A model generated the notes under the pieces. That model did no database searches, was not told the DNA's origin, and saw nothing but the letters and a program-made list of their open reading frames with translations. 64,000 bases of DNA, taken from contig NC_134478.1 of assembly GCF_964194025.1 (NCBI RefSeq), forward strand, positions 34,038,001-34,102,000. Reading direction: 5' to 3'. The first letter of the stretch is position 1. The number at the start of each line of letters is the position of its first letter. The position numbers and the translations under genes are program-made. Shown piece by piece: positions 14,960-61,773 of the stretch. This DNA is from Convolutriloba macropyga. Taxonomy: Eukaryota.

Positions 14960-14962
<3 letters not shown>

Positions 14963-21100: not shown

Positions 21101-21306
21101 CACGGACGCAAACATCAAAACCGTCATTTATTTTGTGCTATGAAATGCTGGTTTAGTCGCAGCTTTTGTTACATTTCCAAGGGACTGGGCGTAGTTTTTT
21201 AGTTCACTGAGGTCAAATTTTACGGTCTCTATCATGTGGTTTGATTTTTCGAGTTTTGTGCAAACATTTTCGATTGTTCCTTGATTTCAATGAGCTTCAT
21301 GCTCTA

Positions 21307-39050: not shown

Positions 39051-42000
39051 TTGTTTTTGAACATATTTTTGTAATAGGTGTTTTTAAAGGCAAAAAATTT
39101 TTTGCTCAGGTTTAAAATCTTCAAGAGTTTTAGCAATGAGTTTGTTTTTGTTTAGTTTTGATTCTTTTAGTTTCTCAATTCTTTGGTGATTTTTGTGTTC
39201 TGGCTGGCATTGTTCAATTGATCTGCTGTTCAGGTAGAGTGCGTCAGAGTTTTTCATTCAATTCTTTGAATTGTATTTCAGGACTTGTCCTGCTATGTTT
39301 TTTTTATTATTGTCTTGTCACTCGCTGATTTTTATAAGGTCTTCGTTTTTATAATTAGGCATAATTCCAAATAATTCAGTTTTTTTGCGATTTCAAATTT
39401 TGATTGTTTTGACAGCATTTTTGGCAGTTTTACAAATTTGAGCCTCATTCGTTTCTGAAAACTGGTATGTGTTTTAATTTGGTGATTTGCTCAATTGGGG
39501 TACTGGTTTTTACGCAGTTACGTCTTTCATTTATTTTGATGCTTCTTGCTTTTAAAGACATTAGTGACATTTGTTTTGAAGATTATATTGATAATCTCAT
39601 TTTTTCAAACTTCATTTTTGTCCTTTTACTTTGTCCTTTGTCTTCATTGGTTTTTATAATTTGTTGTGTATTTTCTAGAGACCCGTAAAGTGAATGGAAT
39701 GTACAATGAAGGACCCGTGATTTTTGATTCACGGTAGCGGTCAGTGGCTTTCTGAAAAAAGCGCATTTATTTAGATTTATTTTCGTTTTTCTTTGCGTAA
39801 ATTGAGGTTTATGCTTCCTCGGCTATCAAAAGCTGTTGCTGTTATTTCCCTGGGCTAAAATTTCTTAATATCTTTTGATTATAAATCAGTCCTCTCCAAT
39901 AAGTTTCATTAATGACAGGTGCAGCTGGCTTTCCATGGAGGCGTGAAAGAAGTTAATCACTTTTCAGTCGATAGAAATTGTTTTTCGATTTCATTCGTTT
40001 TTAAGCAATTTTAACTTGTTGTTTTCCTATGAAAAATCTTTGGTTAATTACTTTAAACTTTAGTTAATGTTTTTAAAACTCTTACGCTTTGTTCAAAAAA
40101 ATCTCATGTGATGTTTGTTTTGCTCTTACTAGCTTTTTGGTTTCTCTCTTGATCTCAATAACAACAGGTCCCATCGTTTAATATTCACTGATTGTTTTCA
40201 AAACTGTCGTTAACAGGCATATGAATATGTACTAAATGACTAAGAACTTTAAAAAGTAGTTGAAAAAATGTAATTAAAAAGTAGTTATTATGCAAATACA
40301 TGAATAGAAGTGTCTTTAAGAAACCAACATTTACTGCCATTGGATTTTTCTATTGTGGCAAAGGATAGAGGAGATTGGTTACAGAAAAGATTTTGCAGAA
40401 CAAACAGATGAAATGAGAAATTTTGGAATATTGATTGAGAAAATAATTTGAATTGGAAGAGTTAGCAAAATTTTCTAGACTTAGCTACAGTTCAAACAAA
40501 AATTACCGTATTCGTTGATTGGACAAAGTTTTTTGAAGAAAATTGTAAAATTTGGAGCGAATTTTTTCAAAAAATCTTTACAGTTTACAGTTGTTACAGA
40601 CGATTAAAAATAATGGTTAATGCAAGTCTCTTTGTAAGGCAAGAAAAAGTCTCTTTCTTGATAGAAACTTGATACAAACTCTGACAAAAATTTCGAATTT
40701 TTGCCGAAAACGGTAAAAAGGAATACAAAAATAAAATAGACTAAAACTAATGAAGTAAGACTAAAAACCTAGGATTTGTGCATTGACAATAGTGTTCAAG
40801 AAGACCAATGTTTCTTTGTGTTCCTGACAAAGTTTGGCGGTAATTCAAAAAGCCTGTAATAACGCTGTGATACAAACAGGGTAGCAAAAACAGTTGTGTA
40901 AGTACAGATAAACTAAATATATATATATATATATATTTTTGCCAAAAATAAGCAGAAAATCATTAGACGTTATTGTTACGCACTGATTTTTATAGTGTTC
41001 CTCGTGGTGTTATTGAGGTTTATATTAGGAGTAATTAACTCGGATAATTGGCATTTTACAAGGACTTATTTGGTGTTTCACAGTGCGGTTTTTAGCAGAT
41101 ATATTTTGAATAAAATTAGCTAGTAATAGCCTTTTATTGAGCGGTTCAGATGCGTGATATATCCACTAGTTTGCCTTGCATTTTAGTGTTAAGTTAGTCG
41201 CTATTTCTTCTGTAACTTAGTTTATCAAACTTGGAGGTTTTTCAAGAGAATTTCCAGTTCAATCTTTAATTATTTTAGCAAGAATTGTTTAATAATTTTA
41301 ACAAGAAGTTTCTCAAGTTTTATCCAGTTTTTATGAGATGTTAGGCAACTGATTGTCAGGCTGGCTCTCCGGTGTTCTCCTGATAGTGGGTTCCGAAGGA
41401 CTGTGCCTTCAGTTGTATTGGTCCTTCGCAAATATTTACTGATTTACAAGTTGGGCAATTTCCGGCTTTTGTACGTCTCTTGGTGTTTGTTCAGTACATA
41501 TACAATTCCGTATTAGCACCTACTTCATCAGAATAATTACTTCACCAAGTACATAATCTCTCATGAAGTTATTTACTGATTATGTGAATTTATCATCAAG
41601 AAACTCAAAAAAGTAAATATTGAGGCTTTTAGGCACTTGAAGTGTTTGCTAGTAAAACTGTCAATCTGCGGTTGTTTTTCATAAACATAAACAAATTAGG
41701 GGTTACAGGCCTAGATGGAAATACTGGCTATATATGGCCTTGAAACTAACTGAATATGAACTAAATTATAGCACTTATTTATGGATATTTAAAGGAAAAT
41801 CATCACGTAACTATAAGGAACGAAATAGGGGCGTGACACTACCCGACTTTATGAAAATTTTCCATGAAAATTTTGAGAATGAACTGGGTTTTTACAATTT
41901 TTTCTATAAAACATATAATCTGCACAAGTATAAGGTTATACACATATTTTTGTTGGAGCCACCCAATTTATGTTTTCTTAGAAAAGAGTTTGGAACGAAA

Positions 42001-42404: not shown

Positions 42405-44704
42405 TTAAAGAATACTTTCATCTCGGGGTTGAGCTTGATGGTCCAGATCATCGTCTGTGTTGAACCGGTCCATGGTGTTGAGTGACATGGTAGAAGTTGC
42501 AGGCATGGAATTTCGCCGTTGTCGCTTGAGGGTTCCAAGTTCTTCTGGGGAAATGACTGTTGGTGGTTGCTTGAGTTGTTTGGCTAGAGTTGTGACTACA
42601 TATGCTTTCAGATGTTTGGGTACGGAAACTACTGGGTTTAGCGGTACATTGGTTCCGTTAAGCTTCATGAAATTTGGTACCATTCGTCGTACAAAAGCTA
42701 CTTTATGGTATAAGAACATGAAGAGAATATGTAGGGCTAGATTTCCGATAAAGACAATGATTGTTAACGAGAGAGAAAGTTTGATCGGAACGTAAGATTC
42801 AAGTTTGTCAATTAGTGCCGGTTTAAATGACTTCATTTCGGTGGTAATTGGCTTTGCTATAGCATCTAGTGACTCTGTTGATAACTTTCTATTCGAGTAA
42901 ATAAATTCGGTTTTAACTTTCTTCAATAAATCGAGGTTTGCTTCAGTACAGGAATCATATTTCGGAAGGTCGTTTATGTTAGGTACTGAGTCAATTAAGT
43001 GCGCAAGTGGATCTGGTAATTTTACATTAATTCTCGTTGCTGGAAGGTACTGACAACTTTGTAAATCAGCTCGAATTTTAATGTGGTCACTGAACATTGT
43101 ATGTCCACATTTTAATGTGATTAAACAGATGTTACAACCTTTATGAGGAACATTGATGTGTCGGCCATTTTCATCCGTACCAATCTCCCTAAGGGTATAA
43201 TCACTTGAAGCTGATGTTAGAAGCCAAATTCCGTATCCAAGGTTCTGTGCTCGTTCTGGGTTGGGTAACACAACCTTCTCTGTATCACATACTTTCAATG
43301 CTGAGATTGTGTGGTGAAACTTGAGGGTTGCTAGACACGAGGAGAATCCAAGGTGAGTTTCCATTGTCTCATGACAGATTCGGTATCGTGGCGATCCAAG
43401 ACAGTTGTCATACTGAGCTTTCGTCAGTACTGTAGTTTCCATCTGTCCTTCTGAGATTGCTAAGTATTCTCCCTCTATTACATATCTTAAGGCGTCTATG
43501 GAGTCCTTCTGAGGCATAGGGATTACTATTGCACGATAAACTTCAAACACTGTCTGGCTAGAGGCTAGGGGAATGGCTAGTGTCAGTAAAAGTCCATCTT
43601 CAACTGTCGAAATCTCTTGTACTAATTTCGCATCGTAGTACGAAAGTATATCAGTCATGGGTATTGCCAAAGTTAGACGATCTGGGGCGTTCTTTTGGCT
43701 ATCATGGACTGCATCAAGGATCTTTATCAAAGATTTACGAGGTACTAAAGAGATTGGAAGACGTTTGTCAAGTAATGTAGGAATGGCATTTAGAACATTA
43801 ATTCGAAAGGAATATAAGGCTGCTCTATAACTTTTGATATCTGCATGATTGATTTAGTAAGAATTAATGATGCTGCTGTGTCAAAGTTAAAGTTCAATTG
43901 TTGTTGTGATAATTGTATTTCCATACAGGAGGCTAGTGCATTCAGATTATGATCTATAATTGCAAACTGTTCCTCTACTAGTTTCCAGTTTCTGTTCTGG
44001 TTTTCTTGCATTTCGTTTTGAACTTTGTAAACTTTTGCAAGTTCGTCAGCAACTAGGAAAAATTTCTCGTCGGTTTGTGCTCCGATTTCCATGACATAGT
44101 CGTTGAGGCTATTGAAACTGTTAGCTAAGCGATCGATATTTTCAGCGTTTTGAGACGTTCTCTGACAAGATCCGAAAATTCCTGTGATTCCACCGCATCC
44201 TCCGCTGCTCATTGCTATTCCTGGACCGAAAAGTCCAATTCCAGCGACTGCGGCTGCGATTGCAAGCGGGGCGGCTCGTTTTTGTCGATTGTGAGGGTCT
44301 TCTTCGACTCTGGTAAGGAGTTTTTCAGTGTCGTTGCGTAATTTAAGGACTTCAATTTCGGCTTCTATTGTTTCATTGAGTATCTTTGTGTAAAGCCAAT
44401 CAACATTGAAGGCGTCTGTTCGATTCCGATATGTAGTGCTGTATGTCAGGTCGCAAAACTCTGATTGCGTGATCCACTTTTTGGAGAGTTCATTAAGTAG
44501 AGTCTCTACTTGTTGTCTGATCGTGAAATTATAACGAGGAAACGGTACTAAAAAGTCCACGTTAATGAACTTTTCGGTAATTAGGATCTTTCCGTCCTTA
44601 TGGAAGATGATTCCTTTATCCAGAGCTGCTTCTGTGTTAATCGGATTCTCAAAAGTGGGGCCGAAAAGTACGAGATTCAATAGAAATGTAAGTAATATTT
44701 TCGT
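42405..44704 (-). pseudogene. env: F-type (class I fusion) envelope glycoprotein, one frameshift near 43850
   Basis: Signal peptide (ACG)KILLTFLLNLVLFG; furin site RQKR followed by fusion peptide AAPLAIAAAVAGIGLFG; heptad region; Cys-rich ectodomain; C-terminal TM LSLSLTIIVFIGNLALHILFMFLY and cytoplasmic tail. Confidence 0.85.
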
Positions 44705-44957
44705 GTTTCAATAATACCAACTATGTTTCAGGACAATCTTCTACTGATGTTGCTCTTCTAAGTGTTTCAACTGGTTCTATTTGGTCTTCCGGTGTTTATT
44801 TGTTCATTTATGTACGTTACTCGGGCTTTTAGTTCTAACTTTCTCAATATGGCACTTGTTTATGTGATGTTTATTCATTTCAGGTGTACTCTACTTTTGG
44901 GTCATGTGTGTTGATGTGTGTATTTATTGATATTACTACTAAATATGGTGTTTAAAC

Positions 44958-45398
44958 ATGTTGAAGTGTGGTTATCTGGTTGAATGGTGGGTGTGTGATA
45001 ATGGGGATAGTGGTTGGGGGGGGGGGTCGAATTATGCAGTCTTTACATGTTTTTTCGAGTTTTTCAGATTATTTTGCCCACAATATTGCACCATGTGCTT
45101 TAATATCACTGTTTCTTCGCTAATTATTGGATGTTGCACAAATGGGACCAGGTTTGTCGGAAGGAACGATGTTCACTGGTCGAGACTGATCCATCCGAAA
45201 TGCAATATGACAGCGGTAGATAATGTAGTTATTGACAGTGGGAGTGGTGGTGGGACTGAGTGGTGGATTATTATTATATTAGTGTTCTTTTTATTATTAT
45301 CATTAGTATCTGGATTGTTGGGAGTGTGGGCAAATCGAAGGAGGAGGAGGAGTGAAGTGGGAAGATCAGAGGAGGCTGTCGAAGAAGATTCAGTGTGA
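44958..45398 (+). CDS. Small putative membrane protein, antisense to the Gypsy genes
   Basis: Hydrophobic stretch WWIIIILVFFLLLSLVSGLLGVW followed by RRRRR stop-transfer; start uncertain. Confidence 0.45.
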   Translation: MLKCGYLVEWWVCDNGDSGWGGGSNYAVFTCFFEFFRLFCPQYCTMCFNITVSSLIIGCCTNGTRFVGRNDVHWSRLIHPKCNMTAVDNVVIDSGSGGGTEWWIIIILVFFLLLSLVSGLLGVWANRRRRRSEVGRSEEAVEEDSV

Positions 45399-45537
45399 CT
45401 TATTATTTATTTTTATTTTATTTAACTATATTAATAGTTGTAATATTATGTAATATTAATATTAATATAACTGTGTTGCCCAGTATGAGAATTTTCTGAC
45501 TTTCTTGCGAAGCAAGTCGTTGTCTCAGTCTGAATGG

Positions 45538-46287
45538 ATGTATCCATCATTTGTTCGAACATCTGAGGAGCGACGAGCTTATCGAGACAAAGCGGAGCAT
45601 ATGGTACTGGGAACAAAGAATGTGGGGACTTCAGAGTTGGCTGTAAATCGGGAGGTGTTGATGTATAATGTGGAAGTGAAGGTGGGCAGCGAGATACAAG
45701 TTCAGGAGAAGGAAATTCCAACTCAGCAGATGGTGTCTCAGGAGTTGGCTTCGCTTCATGTCGGGTTCAGTGCCTCTGCAAAGCACATAACTCGTGTGAG
45801 GTCACAAGTCGATCGCCTGAAAGCTGCTGGGTTCTTCTTTCCACGTTCAATGGGGGGATTGCAAGCCGCTGTTGAAAGGTAATTGCATATGTTTATAATA
45901 TTTATTTATATTTTTATTTGGTTTTCTTTAGTTTGTTACATGTATTAGTAGTTGTGAAGTGGTGTATGCTTATTGTTTAGAGCTAGTCGTGAATGTGTGC
46001 CATGTTTCGTGAAGAAGATGCACGGCAAAGAGGTGCAGTGCACTTTTTTCCGTGCAAATCTTCGTGCAAACTTGTGTGCAGAATTGGGGTACGAGTTTTA
46101 CAATGACTTTTATGCTGAGTATGTGGACATAGTGTCATTTAAAACTCCAAAGTTGCTTGGTGCGGCTGGTGTGAGGGCCGAAGTTGGTGGTCTGTGTGCT
46201 CTCAGTGCTCTGTACTACACTTTAACTGGTCGGAAGTCAGGAATTTGTTGTGTTTTGTTGCAATTTTCAGTAAGTTTATTACTGTAA
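45538..46287 (+). CDS. Spliced antisense ORF (exons 45538-45878 and 45981-46287), unknown function
   Basis: GTAATT...TTTAG intron 45879-45980 joins two track ORFs in frame; CVPC-x5-H-x5-C motif; further GTAAGT..TTACAG candidate intron at 46270-46311. Confidence 0.5.
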
Positions 46288-46563
46288 TTCACATTTGTTC
46301 GGTGTGTTACAGACAAGAAGGTTTCCAAGCATAATGTTCGCGCTCTACGCTTGGCTATTGTGGCCAGGATGCGTTCGCCTGGGTTCTCTGAACTTGTAAA
46401 GGACCAGTTAGGGTACTTTGTGTCGGAGTATGAGATTGCTGAGAGTGAAGATAATGGGTCGTTGGCCGAGTTCTGGGTAAAGTTTCCTGTTTATACTTGG
46501 TAATCCTGGTACGTGCATTTGTAGGTAGATATTATCTGAGGTTTTGCTATTTAGTTTGTCGGT

Positions 46564-46953
46564 ATGGCTTATTTCCTCGGATGCAACGTCAACATCTATT
46601 GGCAGTATACTGAGGAAATGGGGGGCGGCTGGGTGTGTTACAGGCATTCGATCAATGCTAAAGCCACCGCTCCTGCTGTACTGATCCAGTGCATCGGGAA
46701 ATTCATCGACAATGAGTATCGATACCATTGTGAGCCAATCGTAGACTTTCCAAAGTGAGTATTTAACTGTTTTTGTAAAGATCTATCGTGTTTTTCATAT
46801 AATTTTGAGGCTTTTTGTTCATTATAATGACATTTAAACAGGTTGGACGATGCTGAGCGGTACTTGACTCGTTCTACTAGGACAAGGGGTCAGTCCGGTC
46901 AGTGTACTAGTGGTGGTGGTACCGTAGCTGAGGATAGCGCCGATGAGAATTGA
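46564..46953 (+). CDS. Spliced antisense ORF (exons 46564-46754 and 46842-46953), unknown function
   Basis: GTGAGT...AAACAG intron 46755-46841 removes the stop and extends the frame (..DFPK-LDDAERYL..DEN*). Confidence 0.5.
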
Positions 46954-47683
46954 CTAGTGTCGGTGCAATTATATTCATCATGTAGTTTAATTTCATCTAT
47001 AGGTGAGTTTTTACTTTTTATTTGTCAATTGTAGCTTTGACAATTGGTTTTGACTGTTGGTACGAGCAGCTGTGAAGTGTGTGAGCATGTGGTAATATTT
47101 TAATTACAGTGTGTGACTTTATAATGACATATTTATGAAAGTGAAATTCTGGTGACATAACGAATTTTTTTTGATTTTCTGCTGTACTGATCCAGTGCAT
47201 CGGGAAATTCATCGACAATGAGTATCGATACCATTGTGAGCCAATCGTAGACTTTCCAAAGTGAGTATTTAACTGTTTTTGTAAAGATCTATCGTGTTTT
47301 TCATATAATTTTGAGGCTTTTTGTTCATTATAATGACATTTAAACAGGTTGGACGATGCTGAGCGGTACGTGACTCGTTCTACTAGGACAAGGGGTCAGT
47401 CCGGTCAGTGTACTAGTGGTGGTGGTACCGTAGCTGAGGATAGCGCCGATGAGAATTGACTAGTGTCGGTGCAATTATATTCATCATATAGTTTAATTTC
47501 ATCTATAGGTGAGTTTTTACTTATTATTTGTCAATTGTAGCTTTGATAATTGGTTTTGACTGTTGGTACGAGCAGCTGTGAAGTGTGTGAGCATGTGGTA
47601 ATATTTTAATTACAGTGTGTGACTTTATAATGACATATTTATGAAAGTGAAATTCTGGTGACATAACGAATTTTTTTGATTTT
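46673..47683. repeat. ~507-bp tandem duplication
   Basis: CTGCTGTACTGATCCAG... at 46673 recurs at ~47179. Confidence 0.88.
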
Positions 47684-50594
47684 TGAGCATTAACTTTAAT
47701 TTACTTGTAAATTATTGATCATGGACTGGTTCTAATGGTTCTAGATGCTTATTCTGGTTGTTAGCAGCACTTGTGTGTAATTGGAACTGGTTTAGAAGAG
47801 TATTTGGTACTAATTTTCACATGTAATTTTTTCGTAATTTTGGCCATTTTTCCGCATCAGGGCTGGTGTTGCATATATGTGAATTTTTCAATTTTTATTA
47901 AATTTTGTGCAAATTTTTTTGCTTAGCCCACTCAGTAGACATTGGTGGGGAATAACTATGCTATAAATTCAGGTTTTTCGGCACTTTTTGGTTAACTTTT
48001 TCACTAATGTATGAAAAACCGAAAAATGCGAAAAATTGAGGGCTCCAGTGTCACTCAATTTTTAAATTGCTCCAATTGGGCTCAAAATTGGTAGGTCGCT
48101 TCAGGGGCTCAAAAAACGCTGCAGCGCAAAAATTTGGCGCAATTTGAGCATTTTTCGCAAAGATATGATTGTTTTCGTGATCTGAACCTGGCTATTTTTG
48201 AATCATGAATTTTCGGTCTGAATAAGTCGTCACTGCTCATACATTATCGGTATTGAATGGTTAAAATGGTACTGTCTGTGCTTGGTACTAATGTATATTA
48301 TAGTGAATTATAGGGTTTGAAGCTATTTATTGGGTCAGAACATTGATTTTTGCGTCCAAAATGCTAATTTTCAGGCATGATTTTTCCACTAATTGAGCTT
48401 CGTCGAGACATGTGTCAGTCTGGTGTTTCTCTAGTGGCCTAAGTCAGGTGCTAACTGTTAGTACCGATATCTGTGGCTATCAGGGGTAGCTTTTTGGTAG
48501 GTTTGAAGTTGAATAATATGTGTTTTGTGCCGGTTTTTCTGTGAAATTTACTAGATTTTTACTTGTGAAGCATCATGTTTTGTGCATAAGTTGACATAGA
48601 TTGGAGATAATTGATTTTTGACAGTAATTGTGAGTCATACTAGTGAGTACTATGTTGGTAGCAACTATTGGTGCAGTTTGGTGCATGATTTGACTTTTTT
48701 ATGTGGAGTTTTTCACTTTAGAATTTTGGGCTAAATTTGATCAGATATGTGCAATTTTCGATTTTTTCACTTTTTTCAACTTTTATGATTTTCTATGAGA
48801 TTGTATGGGTTTATTGGGCTTTGACAACTACTAGGGAGACTGAATATTGGATATGGGCTCATAATTCGGCTATTTGATACTATTTTTCTGGTATAAATCT
48901 GGCTCTAGTTTGGCAAATTTGAGAAGAGTTTGGTAGGCTTCAGTTTTTTTCTATTATATCAACATTTTACTTAACAATTTTCAATATTTTTGATATGGGC
49001 GTGTAGAGCTTGAGCATGCGGATGTTTTAAGCTAATATCGGATTTTCGATCAATATTTCGGATTTTATGAACATGTTCGTAAATTTTCAAAAAGTCTCCA
49101 AAATTGAGGGGCCCAGCGTCACTCAATTTTTAAAATGCTTCGATTGAGCTGAAAATTGGTGAATCGCTTTATCGGCTCAAAAAACCCTGCAGCGCAAAAA
49201 TTTGGGCAGTTTCAACTATTTTTTCACGAGTTATAACGTTTTTGCTGCAGTGAACCTGGGTTTTTTGAAAAGGCTCAGATAGGGGATAGGTTATTGGCTA
49301 TGAGGCTATGAAAAACTCGTTCAGAATGATTGATATTGCTATGGTTGGACTGCTCATGAGTAGGGCTAACTGAATTCACAATAAAATTGGGCATATTCAG
49401 GTATTAAGATGCATTTTGGATCACTTTTTCTGGTAATTTCACTTAAATTTTTGTGATTTTCATTATTTTGGAAGTGTTTTCTCAGCTTGTATTGGCACTA
49501 GGGGGCTGGGAGTGCATATTCTGAGAGCTATAGATGTGGGCGTGCTGATGGTATGGTTAATTGCTGTCAGAAGTGAATAATGTTGACTCTAGCTGGAAAT
49601 AACTGAATTTTACCTGACAAAATTGTGGCGATTTCAGAGCTTATTTGGTTTTAAGTCTTCATGGTTGATACTGGAATGAACTGGGACTGGTTTTTATGGT
49701 ACTGCGAGGCTAGTGGGGGGTTGCAATAGGGTTGTAGGGGGTATAGGTGGCTTCAATCGGGTCATGTGGGAAATAAAATGACAAAATTTTTGAAGCGGAG
49801 GATTGAAGCAGAAGCGCGATTTTCGTTTTTTCATTTTTCAACATATACTTAGAAATATTGGGTTTTAACGGTTGTTTGAGGTTGTACCATGTGGGTGGCA
49901 GCTGGGAGTAGCTGCTGGAGGCATTTGGGTCAGTTGGGGGTATAATTTACACTACATTTTAATCAATTTTAGCACACTTTGATAGGGTTCGGTATTTTTG
50001 TCATAACTCAACTTTTATTGATTTTTGACGGGATTTTTGGGTACTGAGATGTCAAGCGCGAGCAGTAGGGTGATCTAGGGCTATAAAATGGGTCAATTGG
50101 AGGTTTTTTGTGGGAGTTATCATTGAATTCGAGCGGATTCGAAAAGTGTCAAAAATTGAGGGCTCCAGCGTCACTCAATTTTTAAAGTTCTCCAAATCCC
50201 TTCAAAATTTGCACGTCGGTTCCTCGGCTTGAAAAATGCTGCAGCGCAAAAGTTTGGGGTGATCGGGGCATTTTTCACAATTTTATGACTATTTTTCTGA
50301 AGTGAACCTAGGATTTTCGGAAGGGTCAATTTTAGGCTAATTTTTTGGTACTTAGAATGGGTCGAATGGGTCAATAATAGCTGGAATCGCTTCTACTGGA
50401 TAAGGGCTTTTCAGAACAATAGGTTACTCCAGGTTCAGACAAGTAGTTCTGGAGATATAACAAAATAACTAGGATTTGAGGTCAAAATTTTTCGAATTTT
50501 TTCGATTTTTGGACTTTAGGGTTAAGTTGCTCAGGCTTGTTGGGCTTTTGGGGCAAATGAAGGGTGCTGCTAGACTGTACTGGGTCTGTACATG

Positions 50595-52858
50595 CTAATG
50601 GATATAGATGGTTATGGGTAGAGGGTCGAAGACTTGACATATAAGCTCAAAAATGATGTTAAAATCCAATTTATCATAGCCACTGGCGAGTTTTGGAAGA
50701 CTTAAGTGTGAAATTCCTGCATCTATTACTATTTCTCTCAGTTCATAGAGACTTGCTAATACGGATTCGTATGTGGGTTTGTGGTAGTATCTAAACTTGG
50801 TAACTAAACTGAAGATATAACGTTCAGAAATGGGGTCGAAGTAAATTAAAACTGAGCCAATATCAGGTGGATATCTAAGTCTAATTGCACTTGGGGCTGC
50901 TGGGTACCAGCTTTTGACTTGTCGGGCTAATCCCTTTGCCATTGCAAGGTCTGCTGATACACAGTGTGCAAAAGAGTATGGTGAATATAAGATATCTGTT
51001 GGAGAACTTAGATATGTTGCATTTATTTCTTGACTAAAATGGTTTAAAGTTTGATTAGATGAGCCTGGTGAAGATTTTTTCGATTGAGATCTAGTTACTG
51101 GTTTGTTTGCTGAACTGATTGGCTTTTTCCCTGAATATTTTGCTATACTTGCTCTAACTTGATCTAGTTTTGTCTCTCTACTTGGTGTATTTGACTGTTG
51201 TGCTGCTTGTGCTGATGCTTTTATTGCTTCACGTTTTTCTTCTTGTTCCAGTCTGGCACGTGCGTTTTTTGGTCTAGGACTGCCTGATCTTCTAACTTGG
51301 TTGGTTAGGTAAGGGTTTGTTCTATCTTCATCGTGTAACCATATTTGTCTAGTTATTTTAAATCCTTGGACATTTTTCTTCTGTTGGTATTTTGGTGATT
51401 TGAAAGCACTTTTTTCTGGTTGTCGTTTAGGGTGATAAGGTCGGGCTCTTAATTTTCTATCAGTTAACGCAAATTGTTCTTCATGTGTTTCTGGAGGCGA
51501 GTCACTATCGAATGGTTCTATTGACGGGCGAGGCTGTTGAGCTGGTAGGAACATTTCATCATCTGATGAAGATGATACAAGAGGAACACGAACTTCTGGT
51601 TCTTGATGTCTAATTTCGTCAGCAATTAACGGATTAACTGGTATTCGGGCAATTTGTTCTGCATCCAGATTTAGGTCAGCTAAATTTTTGTCTGAACTAC
51701 TATTTTTGTCAAAAAGATTTGGAATTGCTTCATCTGAACTTGAGGAGTCAAATACTGGAAGATGAACTGGGGCAGTTCGCGGTCTAACTGCTGGTGCTAC
51801 TACCCTCGGTGGGGCTGCTGGAGGTGCTGCTACTGCTGGTCCTGCTAATGGTCCACATAGGGGAACATTTATGGTCACTCTGACTGGATCTTGTTTCTCT
51901 TTTGTAGCTTGTTTTATTTCCTTTTCTTGTTCATTTATCAGATCTGGAATGTGTTTATCAAAAAGCTCTGGCTCCATGTGTTGTCTTCTAGATGGATCAG
52001 GTTGAAAGTTTGCCGGGTTGATAACTTCGAGATCTTCAGGAGTTTCACTTGGATTAATTGGCTTCAATCTGATGCGATGAACACATTGGGTGTAGTTCGT
52101 ATTTACTTTTCGAATGATGTAATTAGAATCAGTAAGGACTTTTTCCACTTTATATAGCGGTAGCCATTTCTGAACTTGGGAAGCTATTACTGTTGATTGT
52201 TCTAATAGCTTAGGGTTTAAAAGTAAACAGAATGATTTTTCTGGAATTGGTTTTGCTGATGCTTTTTGATCATAATACTTCTTGTACTTCAAGTATGCGG
52301 TCGTCAGTTTTTCTTTGTTTTCTCCAAACTTTTGCATCATGGCGTCTTGCAGTTCATTTACAAAGTCAGAGTTTACTGCTACTGCATCCATTACTTTTCT
52401 GGAGAACCTAATGTCGAGGGGTTTTATGGGTTCTCTGCCATGGAATAAAGTTGAAGGACAACAATTTGTCGCTGAATGGTATGACGTATTATGAATAAAA
52501 GTTGTAAAGAGGAACATATTTGTGCCAGTCTTTCCATTGTTCCTCAGTATTGAGTTTTAAAATTCGTTTCAGTGGTCCGTGAGATCGTTCTACTGCTCCA
52601 ATAGTTTGAGGGTGCTTTAGTGAGGCATGTTTTAACTTTACTTCTAATAAACTTGCTAATTCTGACATTAATTCAGAAGTAAAATTGGTTCCTAAGTCAC
52701 TAAGTATTGTTTGAGGAATGTAGCTATGTTGGAAGAACACCTTTACTAATTCTCTAGCTACTGTATCAGCATATCCATTTGTTAATGGAACTGCGAATAG
52801 GTACTTTGTGAAAACATCTATTCCACTCAGAACATACTTATATTGTGATGACTTTAGG
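50595..52858 (-). pseudogene. Duplicated integrase C-terminal half, linker and TARG1-like macrodomain
   Basis: Copy of 55972-58234. Confidence 0.88.
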
Positions 52859-55800
52859 TAGTTTAATTATATAGTTTAATTTCATCTATAGGTGAGTTTT
52901 TACTTATTATTTGTCAATTGTAGCTTTGATAATTGGTTTTGACTGTTGGTACGAGCAGCTGTGAAGTGTGTGAGCATGTGGTAATATTTTAATTACAGTG
53001 TGTGACTTTATAATGACATATTTATGAAAGTGAAATTCTGGTGACATAACGAATTTTTTTGATTTTTGAGCATTAACTTTAATTTACTTGTAAGTTATTG
53101 ATCATGGACTGGTTCTAATGGTTCTAGATGCTTATTCTGGTTGTTAGCAGCACTTGTGTGTAATTTGAACTGGTTTAGAAGAGTATTTGGTACTAATTTT
53201 CACATGTAATTTTTTCGTAATTTTGGCCATTTTTCCGCATCAGGGCTGGTGTTGCATATGTGAATTTTTCAATTTTTATTAAATTTTGTGCAAATTTTTT
53301 TTGCTTAGCCCACTCAGTAGACATTGGTGGGGAATAACTATGCTATAAATTCAGGTTTTTCGGCACTTTTTGGTCAACTTTTTCACTAATGTATGAAAAA
53401 CCGAAAAATGCGAAAAATTGAGGGCTCCAGTTTCACTCAATTTTTAAATTGCTCCAATTGGGCTCAAAATTGGTAGGTCGCTTCAGGGGCTCAAAAAACG
53501 CTGCAGCGCAAAAATTTGGCGCAATTTGAGCATTTTTCGCAAAGATATGATTGTTTTCGTGATCTGAACCTGGCTATTTTTGAATCATGAAATTTCGGTC
53601 TGAATAAGTTGTCACTGCTCATACATTATCGGTATTGAATGGTTAAAATGGTACTGTCTGTGCTTGGTACTAATGTATATTAGTGAATTATAGGGTTTGA
53701 AGCTATTTATCGGGTCAGAACATTGATTTTTGCGTCCAAAATGCTAATTTTCAGGCATGATTTTTCCACTAATTGAGCTTCGTCGAGACATGTGTCAGTC
53801 TGGTGTTTCTCTAGTGGCCTAAGTCAGGTGCTAACTGTTAGTACCGATATCTGTGGCTATCAGGGGTAGCTTTTTGGTAGGTTTGAAGTTGAATAATATG
53901 TGTTTTGTGCCGGTTTTTCTGTGAAATTTACTAGATTTTTACTTGTGAAGCATCATGTTTTGTGCATAAGTTGACATAGATTGGAGATAATTGATTTTTG
54001 ACAGTAATTGTGAGTCATACTAGTGAGTACTATGTTGGTAGCAACTATTGGTGCAGTTTGGTGCATGATTTGACTTTTTTATGTGGAGTTTTTCACTTTA
54101 GAATTTTGGGCTAAATTTGATCAGATATGTGCAATTTTCGATTTTTTCACTTTTTTCAACTTTTATGATTTTCTATGAGATTGTATGGGTTTATTGGGCT
54201 TTGACAACTACTAGGGAGACTGAATATTGGATATGGGCTCATAATTCGGCTATTTGATACTATTTTTCTGGTATAAATCTGGCTCTATTTTGGCAAATTT
54301 GAGAAGAGTTTGGTAGGCTTCAGTTTTTTTCTATTATATCAACATTTTACTTAACAATTTTCAATATTTTTGATATGGGCGTGTAGAGCTTGAGCATGCG
54401 GATGTTTTAAGCTAATAATATCGGATTTTCGACCAATATTTCGGATTTTATGAACATGTTCGTAAATTTTCAAAAAGTCTCCAAAATTGAGGGGCCCAGC
54501 GTCACTCAATTTTTAAAATGCTTCGATTGAGCTGAAAATTGGTGAATCGCTTTATCGGCTCAAAAAACCCTGCAGCGCAAAAATTTGGGCAGTTTCAACT
54601 ATTTTTTCACGAGTTATAACGTTTTTGCTGCAGTGAACCTGGGTTTTTTGAAAAGGCTCAGATAGGGGATAGGTTATTGGCTATGAGGCTATGAAAAACT
54701 TGTTCAGAATGATTGATATTGCTATGGTTGGACTGCTCATGAGTAGGGCTAACTGAATTCACAATAAAATTGGGCATATTCAGGTATTAAGATGCATTTT
54801 TGATCACTTTTTCTGGTAATTTCACTTAAATTTTTGTGATTTTCATTATTTTGGAAGTGTTTTCTCAGCTTGTATTGGCACTAGGGGGCTGGGAGTGCAT
54901 ATTCTGAGAGCTATAGATGTGGGCGTGCTGATGGTATGGTTAATTGCTGTCAGAAGTGAATAATGTTGACTCTAGCTGGAAATAACTGAATTTTACCTGA
55001 CAAAATTGTGTCGATTTCAGAGCTTATTTGGTTTTAAGTCTTCATGGTTGATACTGGAATGAACTGGGACTGGTTTTTATGGTACTGCGAGGCTAGTGGT
55101 GGGTTGCAATAGGGTTGTAGGGGGTATAGGTGGCTTCAATCGGGTCATGTGGGAAATAAAATGACAAAATTTTTGAAGCGGAGGATTGAAGCAGAAGCGC
55201 GATTTTCGTTTTTTCATCATTTTTCAACATATACTTAGAAATATTGGGTTTTAACGATTGTTTGAGGTTGTACCATGTGGGTGGCAGCTGGGAGTAGCTG
55301 CTGGAGGCGTTTGGGTCAGTTGGAGGTATAATTTACACTACATTTTAATCAATTTTAGCACACTTTGATAGGGTTCGGTATTTTTGTCATAACTCAACTT
55401 TTATTGATTTTTGACGGGATTTTTGGGTACTGAGATGTCAAGCGTGAGCAGTAGGTTGATCTAGGGCTATAAAATGGGTCAATTGGAGGTTTTTTGTGGG
55501 AGTTATCATTGAATTCGAGCGGATTCGAAAAGTGTCAAAAATTGAGGGCTCCAGCGTCACTCAATTTTTAAGGTTCTCCAAATCCCTTCAAAATTTGCAC
55601 GTCGGTTCCTCGGCTTGAAAAATGCTGCAGCGCAAAAGTTTGGGGTGATCGGGGCATTTTTCACAATTTTATGACTATTTTTCTGAAGTGAACCTAGGAT
55701 TTTCGGAAGGGTCAATTTTAGGCTAATTTTTTGGTACTTAGAATGGGTCAATAATAGCTGGAATCGCTTCTACTGGATAAGGGCTTTTCAGAAGAATAGG

Positions 55801-55971
55801 TTAATCCAGGTTCAGACAAGTAGTTCTGGAGATATAACAAAATAACTAGGATTTGAGGTCAAAATTTTTCGAATTTTTTCGATTTTTGGACTTTAGGGTT
55901 AAGTTGCTCAGGCTTGTTGGGCTGTTGGGGCAAATGAAGGGTGCTGCTAGACTGGACTGGGTCTGTACATG

Positions 55972-57894
55972 CTAATGGATATAGATGTTTATGGGTAGAG
56001 GGTCGAAGACTTGACATATAAGCTCAAAAATGATGTTAAAATCCAATTTATCATAGCCACTGGCGAGTTTTGGAAGACTTAAGTGTGAAATTCCTGCATC
56101 TATTACTATTTCTCTCAGTTCATAGAGACTTGCTAATACGGATTCGTATGTGGGTTTGTGGTAGTATCTAAACTTGGTAACTAAACTGAAGATATAACGT
56201 TCAGAAATGGGGTCGAAGTAAATTAAAACTGAGCCAATATCAGGTGGATATCTAAGTCTAATTGCACTTGGGGCTGCTGGGTACCAGCTTTTGACTTGTC
56301 GGGCTAATCCCTTTGCCATTGCAAGGTCTGCTGATATACAGTGTACAAAAGAGTATGGTGAATATAAGATTTCTGTTGGAGAACTTAGATATGTTGCATT
56401 TGTTTCTTGACTAAAATGGTTTAAAGTTTGATTAGATGAGCCTGGTGAAGATTTTTTCGATTGAGATCTAGTTACTGGTTTGTTTGCTGAACTGATTGGC
56501 TTTTTCCCTGAATATTTTGCTATACTTGCTCTAACTTGATCTAGTTTTGTCTCTCTACTTGGTGTATTTGACTGTTGTGCTGCTTGTGCTGATGCTTTTA
56601 TTGCTTCACGTTTTTCTTCATGTTCCAGTCTGGCACTTGCGTTTTTTGGTCTAGGACTGCCTGATCTTCTAACTTGGTTGGTTAGGTAAGGGTTTGTTCT
56701 ATCTTCATCGTGTAACCATATTTGTCTAGTTATTTTAAATCCTTGGACATTTTTCTTCTGTTGGTATTTTGGTGATTTGAAAGCACTTTTTTCTGGTTGT
56801 CGTTTAGGGTGATAAGGTCGGGCTCTTAATTTTCTATCAGTTAACGCAAATTGTTCTTCATGTGTTTCTGGAGGCGAGTCACTATCGAATGGTTCTATTG
56901 ACGGGCGAGGCTGTTGAGCTGGTAGGAACATTTCATCATCTGATGAAGATGATACAAGAGGAACACGAACTTCTGGTTCTTGATGTCTAATTTCGTCAGC
57001 AATTAACGGATTAACTGGTATTCGGGCAATTTGTTCTGCATACAGATTTAGGTCAGCTAAATTTTTGTCTGAACTACTATTTTTGTCAAAAAGATTTGGA
57101 ATTGCTTCATCTGAACTTGAGGAGTCAAATACTGGAAGATGAACTGGGGCAGTTCGCGGTCTAACTGCTGGTGCTACTACCCTTGGTGGGGCCGGTGGGG
57201 CTGCTGGAGGTGCTGGTCCTGCTAATGGTCCACATAGGGGAACATTTATGGTCACTCTGACTGGATCTTGTTTCTCTTTTGTAGCTTGTTTTATTTCCTT
57301 TTCTTGTTCATTTATCAGATCTGGAATGTGTTTATCAAAAAGCTCTGGCTCCATGTGTTGTCTTCTAGATGGATCAGGTTGAAAGTTTGCCGGGTTGATA
57401 ACTTCGAGATCTTCAGGAGTTTCACTTGGATTAATTGGCTTCAATCTGATGCGATGAACACATTGGGTGTAGTTCGTATTTACTTTTCGAATGATGTAAT
57501 TAGAATCAGTAAGGACTTTTTCCACTTTATATAGCGGTAGCCATTTCTGAACTTGGGAAGCTATTACTGTTGATTCTTCTAATAGCTTAGGGTTTAAAAG
57601 TAAACAGAATGATTTTTCTGGAATTGGTTTTGCTGATGCTTTTTGATCATAATACTTCTTGTACTTCAAGTATGCGGTCGTCAGTTTTTCTTTGTTTTCT
57701 CCAAACTTTTGCATCATGGCGTCTTGCAGTTCATTTACAAAGTCAGAGTTTACTGCTACTGCATCCATTACTTTTCTGGAGAACCTAATGTCGAGGGGTT
57801 TTATGGGTTCTCTGCCATGGAATAAAGTTGAAGGACAACAATTTGTCGCTGAATGGTATGACGTATTATGAATAAAAGTTGTAAAGAGGAACAT
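55972..57894 (-). CDS. Integrase C-terminus, Pro/Ser-rich linker and TARG1/OARD1 (Poa1p-like) macrodomain; frameshifted continuation of pol
   Basis: HNTSYHS..PSTLFHGR and YKVEK..NY..VHRIRLKP are Gypsy integrase C-terminal motifs. HCISADLAMAKGLA, RYIFSLVTK, KPTYE and LSLPKLASGYDKL match the TARG1 macrodomain signature. Confidence 0.88.
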   Translation of the reverse strand: MFLFTTFIHNTSYHSATNCCPSTLFHGREPIKPLDIRFSRKVMDAVAVNSDFVNELQDAMMQKFGENKEKLTTAYLKYKKYYDQKASAKPIPEKSFCLLLNPKLLEESTVIASQVQKWLPLYKVEKVLTDSNYIIRKVNTNYTQCVHRIRLKPINPSETPEDLEVINPANFQPDPSRRQHMEPELFDKHIPDLINEQEKEIKQATKEKQDPVRVTINVPLCGPLAGPAPPAAPPAPPRVVAPAVRPRTAPVHLPVFDSSSSDEAIPNLFDKNSSSDKNLADLNLYAEQIARIPVNPLIADEIRHQEPEVRVPLVSSSSDDEMFLPAQQPRPSIEPFDSDSPPETHEEQFALTDRKLRARPYHPKRQPEKSAFKSPKYQQKKNVQGFKITRQIWLHDEDRTNPYLTNQVRRSGSPRPKNASARLEHEEKREAIKASAQAAQQSNTPSRETKLDQVRASIAKYSGKKPISSANKPVTRSQSKKSSPGSSNQTLNHFSQETNATYLSSPTEILYSPYSFVHCISADLAMAKGLARQVKSWYPAAPSAIRLRYPPDIGSVLIYFDPISERYIFSLVTKFRYYHKPTYESVLASLYELREIVIDAGISHLSLPKLASGYDKLDFNIIFELICQVFDPLPINIYIH

Positions 57895-60800
57895 TTTTGT
57901 GCCAGTCTTTCCATTGTTCCTCAGTATTGAGTTTTAATATTCGTTTCAGTGGTCCGTGAGATCGTTCTACTGCTCCAATAGTTTGAGGGTGCTTTAGTGA
58001 GGCATGTTTTAACTTTACTTCTAATAAACTTGCTAATTCTGACATTAATTCAGAAGTAAAATTGGTTCCTAAGTCACTAAGTATTGTTTGAGGAATGTAG
58101 CTATGTTGGAAGAACACCTTTACTAATTCTTTAGCTACTGTATCAGCATATCCATTTGTTAATGGAACTGCGAATAGGTACTTTGTGAAAACATCTATTC
58201 CACTCAGAACATACTTATATTGTGATGACTTTAGGGGGCCTACTAAATCGATTTGTAGCATATCTCCTGGATATGATTGTAGAGAACTAACTGGTTGTAA
58301 CTTTGCTGTAATATGGCTTTTTGGTACTCTGTTCAATTGGAGACAAGTAAGGCAGTTTTTGATGAAGCTAATGAAATGTTCGGTGAAGCCTGGATAATAA
58401 AATCGCTTTCTAAATTCCTGAATTGTTGCTTTGATACCTAAGTGACCTGCTGTTTGTGAATTATGGAGCCTATATATAGTCTCTTTCCACAAATGTTTAG
58501 GTACACAGAATTGTTTATGAAGTACATTTCCAGTATCATCATAAAAATTCCGGTATAAGACATTCCCTTCAAGAATTAATCTATTTAAATGTTTTTGATA
58601 CTTTTTTAAGTTGGTTGTAGCATACTTTAAGTCTGGTTGTTGATTGTTTTGTTGAATCCAGCTTATTACTATTCTAATATCTGCATCTTTTTGCTGCTCA
58701 TCTGCTAAGTTAAGGCTAATTAAGTTGTCTGTAAGGTCTGGGAACTCATCTAATGGATTTGGGTACTCAATTGAATTTATTTCGTGTTTTCGTTTAAGTT
58801 TTAATAGCCCTTGAATTTCTGTAATTGGAACATTATTTTGTCGTTTTTTGTAATCCTCATAAACTCCTAGTTTTTTAAGAAAGTTAACTTCGTCTTCGTT
58901 TATTTCGTCACCGAGGCCTTCAGTATCAAATAACACATTTAGTTCTACATCAGGGTTTTGTGCTTCTGTGTCAATTTCTATTTCTTTAACTGGAATTCTG
59001 TCTGTTAACTTTAAAGACATTGTTGCTGTTTTGTCATTCTCCATTCGGGAGAGAAAATCCGCTGCGTAATTAGCGCGTCCAGGAATGTGAGCAATTACTA
59101 TGTTAAATGCGAGTATTCTGTCTAAACAATTCCAGAGTGATGGTGGTATTACTTTTGACTGAAAGAATTGTGTGAGGCTTTTGTTGTCAGTGAGTATAAT
59201 TACTTGTTTACTTGATCCCCAAATGTAGTGTGAAAAGTAGTCCAGCGCGTAGTACAAAGCTAGGAACTCTTTGTAGTATATTGAGAACTTAAATTGTGTG
59301 GCATTAAACAAATGCGATCCAAACGAAACGGGAGCGTATGTTTTCTTTTCTTTCTTTCCTGTTTCATTTACGTAGTCTTCCACCATTAGTACAAAACCTG
59401 CACCGTGGTAACTAGCGTCACAAAGAATTACATACTGTAGCCCTGGTTTTGGCAATCGCAAAGTTACATTCGTTGCTTCCATTAGATCCTTTTTTATTAC
59501 TTCTAATGCTTTTACATGTTCTTCTGTGGTTTCTATTACTGCATCCTTCTTCAGGAGCTTGTAAGAGGACATTAGTTTCTCACCTAGATTAGGTATGTAA
59601 TTACGGAAGAATTGCGTGAAGCCAATTAGTCGTTTTACTTGCTTTGTTGTTTTCGGCATTTTAAATTTATCAAGAAATTTCGTTATTTTTGATTTTTCTG
59701 GTGATATTCCTTCTGCACTGATGTTATTTCCAAGGAATTTTATTGTATCGGTTGCTATTTCACAATTTTCGGGCGACAGTTTCAGTCCCGATTGACGTAT
59801 ACATGTAAAGATTTCTCGTAAAGAAGGTACCAATTGTTCAAAATTTGTTACTGCATTTCCGATATCATCCATAAACTGGGTACAATTTCCTGATGCTAAG
59901 CATGGGTCCAAGTAATGTCTAATAGAGGAACTAACTCCTGTTACTGACTTATTCAATCCTTGTGCAAGACATTTATATGCATAAGTTCTCGAAGCAAAGT
60001 TAAATGCTGGCAGTTGCACTGATACATCGTCTGCCATTTGCACGCAATGATATGCTTGAGAACAGTCAAGTTTTGTGAACAATTTTTTTCCAGCAAAGTA
60101 ATTTATTGCGTCGCTCATGTTTGAAATCGGGAAATTCGTATTTACGTAGTCATTTTTCAGCAAGTGGTTTACTTTTCTCAAGTCAATTAATAGTCTAAGT
60201 CTTCCTGAATTCTTTCGTTGTGCGAAAAGTGGACTACTATATCTTGATTGAGACAAAGTTGTTATCAGTCCGTAATAATGCATTAGTGCGAGCTCTATTT
60301 GTAACTCATTTCTTAAATGGAAGGGCGTTGGAGGGCCTTGTTCGTAAGTTGGTATGCTTCTTTCTGGAGTTAACTTTATTTTTAAATATGTATTATATCC
60401 AACGTCAAATCTGTGTTTCGCAAAGATATCACTGAATTCAACTAGTAGTTCACCTACTACTGCTTTTTGCTCATCATTGAGGGCTGATTTTTCCCACGGA
60501 AACTTGCTCAAAAAGGTTATTTTATCCTGATTATTACCCTTTGGATCTAATTTCTCCATTTCTTGCAGTTTTAGCAGTTGCTCATAGACATCTCTCTGCA
60601 AGGGCGACAAATTTGTCGGATCTGGGCACGTTTCAGGCGTTGGGAACCATAGTTTTTCATATTCTGGCGCTGGTTTCGCTGGTTGAGATTTTCTTTTCGG
60701 GGTGTCTGTAACTTGAATTAATTGATTTATTTCTGTTAAGTAATTTTCGCTCATTTTTGCAACATTTATTAATTGAGGATCTACTTCTAACAACTTTTCT

Positions 60801-61773
60801 GCTTGGTCTGATGTTAAGAATGAGAATTTGGCTATTTCTTCGTCTTTATTTATGGTAATTGGGTGGTCAGTAATGTTCAGGACATAGATGTAGAGAATGT
60901 TATTTTCAGCAACTTTACTTAGAGATGATGTTAATATTACTTCACTATCTTTTTCAAAGATTTCGTTTGGAATTATTACTCCACAAAGGTCAGTGAATGA
61001 TTCTAGTTTATCATAGAGCTTACATTCTAATACTGCTTGTTGACTCGGCTGTAACACTTGCTTTTTCTGTGTATAAACTCCAAATTTTTTGCATTTTACC
61101 ACTCTTCTAGGTTGCTTTTCTGGCTTTATTTCATTTATTTGTAATGTTTGATCAGGGAATTTAATGTAACTTTGTCCTGGGCAGATGCTAACTTTGTGTT
61201 TAACGAAGAATGGGTTGCCTAATATTACAGGAGTTGTGACAATTAAAACAAGGAAATCTTCTGTAAATGTTTGTGTGCCCAATTTAAATGTAATTTTAAT
61301 TGCTTTATCAATTTTAACTATATTGCCGTTTGCCATTTTAACTTTATCTAGATCTGACTTGTCTATTTCTGTTATTGAATTGATATTTGTGTTAATTAGT
61401 TCCTTGTAAAACTCACGACTTATCACATTTGCAAATGCTCCTGTATCAACTAGTGCGCGTCTGTCTAATTCTCCATTAAATTCAACTTAACATAGGACAA
61501 TGTTCTGCCTAAAAGTGGGACAATGCTAAATAATTGCTGAACATGTGGTGTTGGCTTTGGTGTGGATTTAGGTACTTGTGTTGGGAGTTGCACAGATTTA
61601 TTCACTTTACATTTATTATTATTACTTTTGCGTTTTCTACGCTTTTTGTTACTTTTATTTTAAACTGGCTCTATTACTTTATCTAAACTAGGACTAGACG
61701 TGCTTTCGTTATAATGGTTAACTGAGTTTTTATAATTTTTATTTTGTTTTTTAAAGTTGGGTGGCTTTATTAG
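57866..61773 (-). CDS. pol: Ty3/Gypsy pol (PR-RT-RNase H-IN), N-terminal part with one stop and one frameshift
   Basis: Protease ALVDTGA near 61440; RT LIDLRKVN, KLDCSQAYH, FMDD; RNase H CDAS, KEFLAL, TDNKSL; integrase H-H-C-C and D,D,E (IDLVG, SDLG, VER). Confidence 0.93.

What the first reader, a model, noticed from the sequence alone, without database searches (positions are those of the whole stretch)
44958..46953. Cluster of intron-containing antisense ORFs between pol and env
Seen: a TM-containing ORF and two ORF pairs joined in frame by canonical GT-AG introns (45879-45980, 46755-46841). A third candidate intron (46270-46311) would join a CGWC..CSQC frame to a ~60-codon exon, though that frame has an upstream stop. 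Inference: introns can persist in a retroelement when antisense to the genomic RNA, as here, so these may be accessory genes comparable in layout to HTLV-1 HBZ. Alternatively they are a captured host or DNA-transposon fragment.
Basis: partly seen in the sequence, partly recalled or inferred. Interest (0 to 1): 0.7.

Follow-up and report, generated by a model that had tools for sequence, protein, structure and literature searches.

The report
Retrotransposon hides captured antisense protease gene
A virus-like jumping gene of this animal-type genome carries, backwards between its polymerase and envelope genes, two extra genes kept under selection: a five-exon gene for a predicted OTU-type protease that likely derives from a cut-down Ginger DNA transposon, and a small membrane-protein gene; the protease likely helps the element against ubiquitin-based host control.

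Summary
The block is real, but it is not several ORF pairs. It is an antisense cassette of an env-bearing Gypsy element: a ~101-aa single-pass membrane ORF and ONE five-exon gene (381 aa, four introns). Across 40 copies splice sites are kept (38-40 of 40) and shared variants are mostly synonymous (N/S ratio about 0.12, against 0.8 for private ones). Homologues at 24-52% identity lie antisense at the same place in nine further cassette types; all 40 diverged loci fetched adjoin env or pol. The protein matches both ends of Ginger1-type transposases: integrase-like N-terminal H2C2 domain (E 2e-6) and OTU cysteine protease (E 4e-11), without the DDE core; Cys, His and Glu are kept. The cassette is dispensable (49 of 125 env loci lack it) and has been swapped between backbones. 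Splicing, expression and enzyme activity are untested; no RNA data were available. Antisense extra genes are known in plant and fungal elements, and this scan found spliced ones in fungi before; a transposon-derived OTU gene in an env-bearing element was not found in my searches.

The parts
40974..41838 (-). 3' LTR, 865 bp, TG...CA; 99.4% identical to the 5' LTR just beyond the window (64254-65118 in extended coordinates); 5-bp target duplication on both flanks
42408..44707 (-). env-like gene, frameshifted in this copy (two ORFs); weak Baculo_F match (E 0.006, below cut-off); shared-variant N/S ratio 0.05-0.07 in the family
45093..45398 (+). small single-pass membrane protein ORF, 101 aa (Cys-rich ectodomain with N-glycosylation sequons, hydrophobic helix, Arg run, acidic tail); a second, 115-aa type in other copies; an acceptor-like TTTCAG lies about 25 nt upstream
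   Evidence: shared-variant ratio 0.15, 24 copies; counterparts in 7 of 10 cassette types
45474..45878 (+). exon 1 of the long gene (YPYY-like and H2C2-like integrase N-terminal domain); about 440 bp that hold the start codon and upstream acceptor are deleted at ~45474 in this copy only
45879..45980 (+). intron 1 (102 nt, phase 2), predicted
   Evidence: same place and phase in types B, C, D
45981..46240 (+). exon 2: CxxC of the zinc domain, pre-OTU helix, and the OTU Cys motif (Cys209 of the spliced product)
46241..46312 (+). intron 2 (72 nt, phase 1), predicted; donor non-canonical in this copy only
46313..46476 (+). exon 3: helical part of the OTU-like domain
46555..46754 (+). exon 4: beta sheet of the OTU-like domain with His336 and Glu338
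46755..46841 (+). intron 4 (87 nt, phase 2), predicted
46842..46953 (+). exon 5: short tail, little constraint (dN/dS 0.82), stop kept in 40 of 40
46673..47683 (.). 506-bp tandem duplication that repeats the gene's 3' end in this copy
47480..58235 (.). 5.4-kb tandem duplication of the non-coding spacer and the 3' part of pol in this copy
55975..61486 (-). pol (protease, RT, RNase H, H2C2, rve), frameshifted in this copy
61773..63042 (-). gag-position ORFs (two frames); no Pfam match, assigned by position

Best explanation
The stretch is an antisense accessory cassette of an env-bearing Gypsy retrotransposon clade, holding a selected five-exon gene whose predicted product joins an integrase-type zinc-binding domain to an OTU-like cysteine protease, likely captured once as a Ginger1 DNA transposon that lost its DDE core, and likely used as a ubiquitin-removing counter-defence enzyme. 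Steps: (1, shown) the cassette lies antisense between pol and env and is under purifying selection. (2, inferred) The integrated element is transcribed on the opposite strand and spliced; the introns survive retrotransposition because the packaged genomic RNA is the other strand; an acceptor-like AG 4-25 nt before each ATG suggests each ORF is reached by splicing from a leader. (3, shown as similarity, inferred as history) The protein is colinear with both ends of Ginger1-type transposases and lacks the ~350 columns between. (4, inferred) The N-terminal domain would dock the protease on integrase or chromatin, where it would cut ubiquitin or a ubiquitin-like tag from element proteins or chromatin and so blunt host degradation or silencing. 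(5, inferred) It acts in trans, so deleted lineages still spread; cassettes are exchanged by recombination, as expected of a gene in conflict with the host. The small membrane protein is likely a second accessory factor at the cell or particle membrane.
For: Splice sites kept in 38-40 of 40 copies; 13 of 40 give an open 381-aa frame as they stand. dN/dS 0.25 over all pairs; variants in four or more copies N 27.5 / S 72.5 against private N 308 / S 117; 1 of 26 exonic but 10 of 21 intronic indel events are shared. Same four intron positions and phases (2,1,0,2) in one copy each of types B and D, same sites in C, at 24-45% identity. 40 of 40 diverged loci adjoin env or pol on the other strand, 34 both. 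Profile search: of 41 long hits scanned, 40 carry Pfam OTU, among them rve+OTU, H2C2+OTU and Helitron proteins. Against Ginger-type transposases: N-terminus prob 89.7%, E 1.9e-6; OTU part prob 97%, E 3.8e-11, template columns 1-137 and 491-642 only; alignment gaps fall on predicted introns 2 and 3. Folds: exon-1 model (pLDDT 77.5) ranks Ty3 and foamy-virus integrases first in both searches; OTU-region model gives OTU domains in 29 of 31 listed rows and OTUD1 as best VIA hit, Z 5.5, rmsd 5.2, 104 aligned. Cys209 39/40, His336 37/40, Glu338 40/40. Types C and I are 92-96% identical in DNA on both sides but unalignable over the cassette. Ginger1 architecture and introns: PMC2836005.
Against: No RNA evidence: splicing and expression are predictions. 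No direct Pfam or PDB-sequence hit for any exon or the read-through. All fold matches are weak (no Foldseek E <= 0.001; Z 4.5-5.5; OTU model pLDDT 43). In the alignment the Asp of the usual GDGNC loop and the Trp of the W-A/G motif are replaced, so ubiquitin may not be the substrate. The OTU tree puts the four cassette proteins on one long branch outside both Ginger and Helitron OTUs, so it does not name the donor; Helitron-type OTUs score nearly as well (E 1.4e-11 against 5.7e-15). No terminal inverted repeats and no free Ginger-OTU donor among the 84 of 10,819 candidates scored. 49 of 125 env loci lack the gene, and so do six of six sister-family loci.
Confidence: 0.62

Rival explanations
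1. Same gene and origin, but it is a brake, not a counter-defence: the integrase-like N-terminal domain poisons or sequesters integrase multimers and the OTU fold is a binding module or has another substrate; the antisense RNA also pairs with genomic RNA and limits copy number.
For: Altered OTU loop and Trp motif; deletion lineages that lack the gene have spread (two shared deletions in 6 and 5 of 14 loci fetched); antisense-RNA regulation is discussed in PMC7264820.
Against: Cys, His and the His+2 residue are kept in type A copies and at the same places in the other types; a pure brake would not be expected to be kept and exchanged across ten cassette types.
Confidence: 0.2
2. Two-step chimera: the N-terminal domain came from a YPYY-type Gypsy integrase and the OTU from a Helitron or host gene, joined inside the element.
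For: The OTU tree does not place the cassette proteins inside Ginger OTUs, and Helitron-type OTUs match well; YPYY also occurs in some Gypsy integrases (PMC2836005).
Against: Both ends are colinear with a single transposase type from residue 1; the clade's own integrase N-termini match poorly (E 0.1); one internal deletion is simpler than two captures, and Ginger1 genes carry introns (PMC2836005).
Confidence: 0.12
3. Passenger: a DNA transposon or host fragment nested in the element and copied without function.
For: Dispensable in many copies; the window's own copy is broken.
Against: Shared-variant N/S ratio about 0.12 against 0.8 for private variants, while shifted frames give 1.4-1.7; same position and exon breaks at 24-52% identity; no DDE core or terminal repeats.
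Confidence: 0.03

Closest known systems
Antisense additional ORFs of plant and fungal Ty3/Gypsy elements (maize Grande gene23, rice RIRE2, Silene Retand, Botrytis Boty brtn)
   Same: Antisense to gag-pol, downstream of pol, kept in most copies, own promoter shown for Grande (PMC7264820, parts 1-2 of 3 read; brtn seen only as passages in PMC7264820 and PMC8365987, the original paper not read).
   Different: Those elements are described without env at this place and their ORFs have no clear homologues; the review says a TE origin is unsupported. Here the cassette lies between pol and an env gene, has four conserved introns, a recognisable OTU-like protease and a traceable transposon architecture.
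Ginger1 DNA transposons with C-terminal OTU (Bao, Kapitonov, Jurka 2010, PMC2836005, parts 1-3 of 5 read)
   Same: YPYY-like region, H2C2 zinc domain, OTU domain at the C-terminus, GT-AG introns.
   Different: No DDE core, no GPY/F region, no terminal inverted repeats; moves only as part of an LTR element; OTU loop and Trp motif altered.
Viral OTU deubiquitinases of nairoviruses, arteriviruses and tymoviruses (PMC3968130, passages read)
   Same: OTU fold with Cys and His carried by a parasite, with departures from the cellular active site.
   Different: Those are polyprotein domains of RNA viruses with shown activity; this is a spliced antisense gene with no activity tested.
HTLV-1 antisense gene HBZ
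   Same: Antisense coding unit in a retrovirus-like genome (antisense promoter in the 3' LTR: passage in PMC7264820).
   Different: No sequence or domain relation seen; HBZ as a spliced bZIP protein is recalled, not checked; promoter position here is unknown.
Env-bearing invertebrate LTR elements with extra ORFs (Oikopleura Tor, PMC4402516; bdelloid ORF3s, PMC5408684; passages read)
   Same: Env or extra ORF after pol; internal promoters; modular gain and loss of extra ORFs.
   Different: The passages read describe no antisense, intron-containing coding cassette and no OTU.

Membership tests
Ty3/Gypsy LTR element with env-like gene | Paired LTRs with TG...CA and target-site duplication | tested here: met
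Ty3/Gypsy LTR element with env-like gene | pol order protease-RT-RNase H-integrase | tested here: met
Ty3/Gypsy LTR element with env-like gene | env-like fusion glycoprotein ORF in sense after pol | tested here: inconclusive
   765-aa ORF under selection, Baculo_F E 0.006 below cut-off
Antisense additional ORF (aORF-3R) of LTR elements | Antisense, between pol and 3' LTR, present and constrained in many copies | tested here: met
Antisense additional ORF (aORF-3R) of LTR elements | Transcribed from its own antisense promoter | not testable with these tools
   no RNA data obtained
OTU cysteine protease (PF02338) | Profile or fold similarity over the domain | tested here: met
   profile-profile E 4e-11 to 6e-15 against OTU-bearing transposases; 40 of 41 long hits carry OTU; no direct Pfam hit; weak fold hits
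OTU cysteine protease (PF02338) | Catalytic Cys, His and His+2 acidic or amide residue | tested here: met
OTU cysteine protease (PF02338) | Canonical DGNC loop and W-G/A motif | tested here: not met
   Asp and Trp replaced in the alignment with Ginger OTUs; so filed as OTU-like, not as a canonical deubiquitinase
OTU cysteine protease (PF02338) | Cleaves ubiquitin or ubiquitin-like conjugates | not testable with these tools
   needs an assay
Ginger1 DNA transposon | YPYY region and H2C2 zinc domain at the N-terminus | tested here: met
   two His invariant in 12 rows, CxxC at start of exon 2
Ginger1 DNA transposon | DDE core and GPY/F motif | tested here: not met
   template columns 138-490 have no counterpart
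Ginger1 DNA transposon | Terminal inverted repeats of 40-270 bp and 4-bp target duplication | tested here: not met
   no inverted repeat above 27 nt and 74% in four loci
Ginger1 DNA transposon | OTU domain nests among Ginger1 OTUs | tested here: inconclusive
   long separate branch in a quick tree of 29 rows

The most novel reading that the evidence does not exclude
A whole clade of endogenous, env-bearing animal retroelements domesticated a DNA transposon of another class: the Ginger1 transposase gene, introns included, was trimmed to an integrase-docking domain plus an active OTU protease and now serves, with a small membrane glycoprotein, as an exchangeable antisense counter-defence module, the first deubiquitinase-type accessory gene of a retrovirus-like element.
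Probability: 0.4. Interest if true: 0.85.

Novelty: new variant of a known kind. Interest (0 to 1): 0.72.

Why it matters
The origin and job of antisense extra genes in LTR elements are open (PMC7264820 says their origin is mostly unknown and that no TE similarity had been found). Here one has a readable origin and a testable enzyme. It shows how an intron-containing gene can cross from a DNA transposon into a retrovirus-like genome (only backwards), gives an invertebrate-type parallel to the accessory genes of complex retroviruses, and offers a direct test of the idea that transposon-borne OTU domains act on the ubiquitin system (raised in PMC2836005). Ten diverged, swappable versions point to conflict with a host factor that could be found by pull-down.

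Tried and rejected
RNA check: no sequencing runs could be obtained, so junctions are untested. Pfam on single exons and on read-throughs: nothing significant. PDB by sequence: nothing. Word-based homologue searches with exon 1 and its alignment among longer proteins: none, weak evidence. H2C2 profile from the clade's own integrases: not significant (E 0.1). OTU profile from six long-ORF OTUs of the same genome did not score type A (0.3 bits), though B, C, D beat all 500 shuffles each. Alignments A4 (fragments misplaced) and A5 (wrong coordinates) were discarded. Free Ginger donor in the genome: not among 84 scored of 10,819 candidates, so not excluded. No further coding signal in the ~3-kb spacer towards pol. 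Atlas look-alikes of one membrane ORF all below 0.9: no family assigned. Nucleotide-level splice sites in types E-J were not checked; only the exon breaks on the profile were seen. Literature searches for an OTU or Ginger capture by an LTR element (listings only unless named) showed none; Repbase and subscription journals were not searchable, and no supplements were opened (the alignments of PMC2836005 could hold Ginger intron positions).

Full report
1. Setting. The window lies in a 1.18-Gb eukaryotic genome; an invertebrate animal host is my inference from the element types and was not established. The finding sits in a Gypsy element on the minus strand: gag-position ORFs 61773-63042, pol 55975-61486 with protease, RT, RNase H and integrase domains, an env-like gene 42408-44707 (weak Baculo_F match), LTRs of 865 bp at 99.4% identity and a 5-bp target duplication. 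This copy has private damage: frameshifts in gag, pol and env, tandem duplications of 506 bp and 5.4 kb, and a deletion of about 440 bp at 45474 that none of the 39 other copies fetched shares.

2. What the block is. Aligning 40 copies (the window and the 39 best other DNA matches of 290 candidates) gives one gene of five exons, 1,146 nt, 381 aa. Donors are GT in 40, 39, 39 and 38 of 40 copies, acceptors AG in 40, 40, 38 and 40, the stop in 40, the ATG in 37; 13 of 40 copies give an open spliced frame as they stand. As a control, only 15 of 52 GT/AG dinucleotides inside the introns are kept that well. Its third is not: that GT occurs in 20 of 40 copies, whereas the donor at 46241 is canonical everywhere but in the window. 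A fourth intron (46477-46554) was missed. The membrane ORF starts at 45093 and has two types of 101 and 115 aa.

3. Selection. Over all pairs dN/dS is 0.25 (exons 1-4: 0.16-0.37; exon 5: 0.82); shifted frames give 1.36 and 1.72; of the reverse frames two give 1.15 and 1.79 and the mirror frame that shares third positions 0.29. Variants private to one copy are near neutral (N 308, S 117, on 871 and 269 sites, ratio about 0.8); variants in four or more copies are mostly silent (N 27.5, S 72.5, about 0.12). That is decay after insertion over constraint during replication. Env shows the same pattern (0.05-0.07) and the type I membrane ORF 0.15 on few variants (N 7, S 14). One of 26 exonic indel events is shared among copies (a 1-nt deletion in five), against 10 of 21 intronic ones.

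4. Depth. Exon searches found diverged homologues. Of 40 such loci fetched, all adjoin env or pol on the opposite strand and 34 have both within 10 kb. By eye they fall into ten cassette types, A-J, at 24-52% protein identity. In one copy each of B and D the four introns lie at the same residues with phases 2, 1, 0, 2 and an open frame; in C the same sites are present in a copy with a 1-nt lesion. For E-J only the breaks of exon ORFs on the profile were seen. A small membrane ORF precedes the gene in 7 of 10 types, with a signal-peptide-like start in five, and an acceptor-like AG lies 5-17 nt before the long gene's ATG in 11 of 12 loci examined.

5. What the protein is. Pfam and PDB sequence searches saw nothing directly. 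A profile of exons 2-4 found 103 proteins at E <= 0.001 among 1.84 billion. I scanned 46 of them: 40 of 41 long ones carry Pfam OTU, five short ones nothing; the short top hits look like exon pieces of these same elements. The long hits include rve+OTU, H2C2+OTU and Helitron proteins. Following one gave full H2C2-rve-OTU transposases, the Ginger1 layout of PMC2836005. Exon 1 matches their N-terminus from residue 1 (prob 89.7%, E 1.9e-6); the spliced products match template columns 1-137 and 491-642 of 656 and nothing between (E 1.2e-4 and 3.8e-11); four types score 18-36 bits against at most 2.8 for 300 shuffles each. With intron-derived residues left in, the alignment opens gaps just at introns 2 and 3, support for the splice model that does not rest on copy comparison. 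Models built without any OTU or integrase sequence point the same way, weakly: exon 1 (pLDDT 77.5) ranks Ty3 and foamy-virus integrases first (E 0.1, Z 4.5), and exons 2-4 (pLDDT 43) list OTU domains in 29 of 31 rows and OTUD1 first by VIA. Cys209, His336 and Glu338 are kept in 39, 37 and 40 of 40 copies, the zinc ligands in 38-40. The usual loop Asp and the Trp motif are replaced. A quick tree leaves the cassette OTUs on their own long branch, so the Ginger origin rests on architecture, not on nesting.

6. Accessory and modular. Choosing loci by env instead, 76 of 125 have an exon-2 or exon-4 match within 9 kb and 49 do not (both lists capped at 150 scored). Of 14 of those 49 fetched, six share one deletion that removes exons 1-4, five share another that removes both genes, three have other deletions; six of six loci of sister families lack the long gene, four keep a membrane-ORF homologue. 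Types C and I are 92-96% identical in DNA through env and pol but unalignable across the 2.2-kb cassette, which is best read as a swap. Cassette identity still tracks env (rho 0.64, Mantel p 0.004) and integrase (0.56, p 0.02), less tightly than these track each other (0.92).

7. How it likely works. Shown: position, gene structure by comparison, constraint, domain similarity, loss and exchange. Inferred: antisense transcription and splicing from the integrated copy; survival of introns because the genomic RNA is the other strand; capture from Ginger1 with loss of the DDE core; a protease that, guided by its integrase-type domain, removes ubiquitin-like marks that the host uses against the element, acting in trans. 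My odds: real selected spliced gene 0.93; Ginger1-derived 0.8; active protease 0.65; counter-defence role about 0.5.

8. Known and new. Antisense extra ORFs after pol are known in plants and in Botrytis (PMC7264820), and earlier notes of this scan report spliced ones in fungal elements (unchecked); none for this genome or sequence. OTU domains are known in Ginger1, Helitrons and RNA viruses (PMC2836005, PMC6431247 passages, PMC3968130 passages). I found no report of an OTU gene, or of a domesticated Ginger gene, inside an LTR element, within the limits of the library. Verdict: new variant of a known kind, interest 0.72.

Noticed in passing
window 55975-56460 and 50598-51080 (minus), end of pol: pol ends in a ~150-aa domain after a long linker that looks like a macro (ADP-ribose) domain from recalled motifs; no Pfam match; strongly constrained (ratio 0.02).
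   Followed up: partly
window 47000-50600: About 3 kb of non-coding spacer between the cassette and pol, kept in all copies, with three or four diverged ~170-bp repeats about 1.05 kb apart; no codon signal. Could be a packaging or promoter element.
   Followed up: partly
window 44946-44958 and the deleted stretch (L002 about 1337-1349): A similar 13-nt motif with a donor-like GT lies 110-140 nt upstream of the acceptor before each of the two antisense ORFs; one recurrent deletion starts at it.
   Followed up: partly
window 45093-45398 and other copies: The membrane ORF exists as two very different types within one young family (22 and 9 of 40 copies classed), a second sign of module exchange.
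   Followed up: partly
L091-L097: ORFs of about 2,500 aa with canonical OTU domains in the same genome, Helitron-like by size only.
   Followed up: no
L074, L081, L087, L114; G000:C4:31835316-31841944, C11:44713066-44724326: Tandem duplications of parts of the cassette in several copies.
   Followed up: no
window 12093-21307: Tandem array of a 1,387-bp unit from a LINE-like element (endonuclease-like ORF repeated).
   Followed up: no
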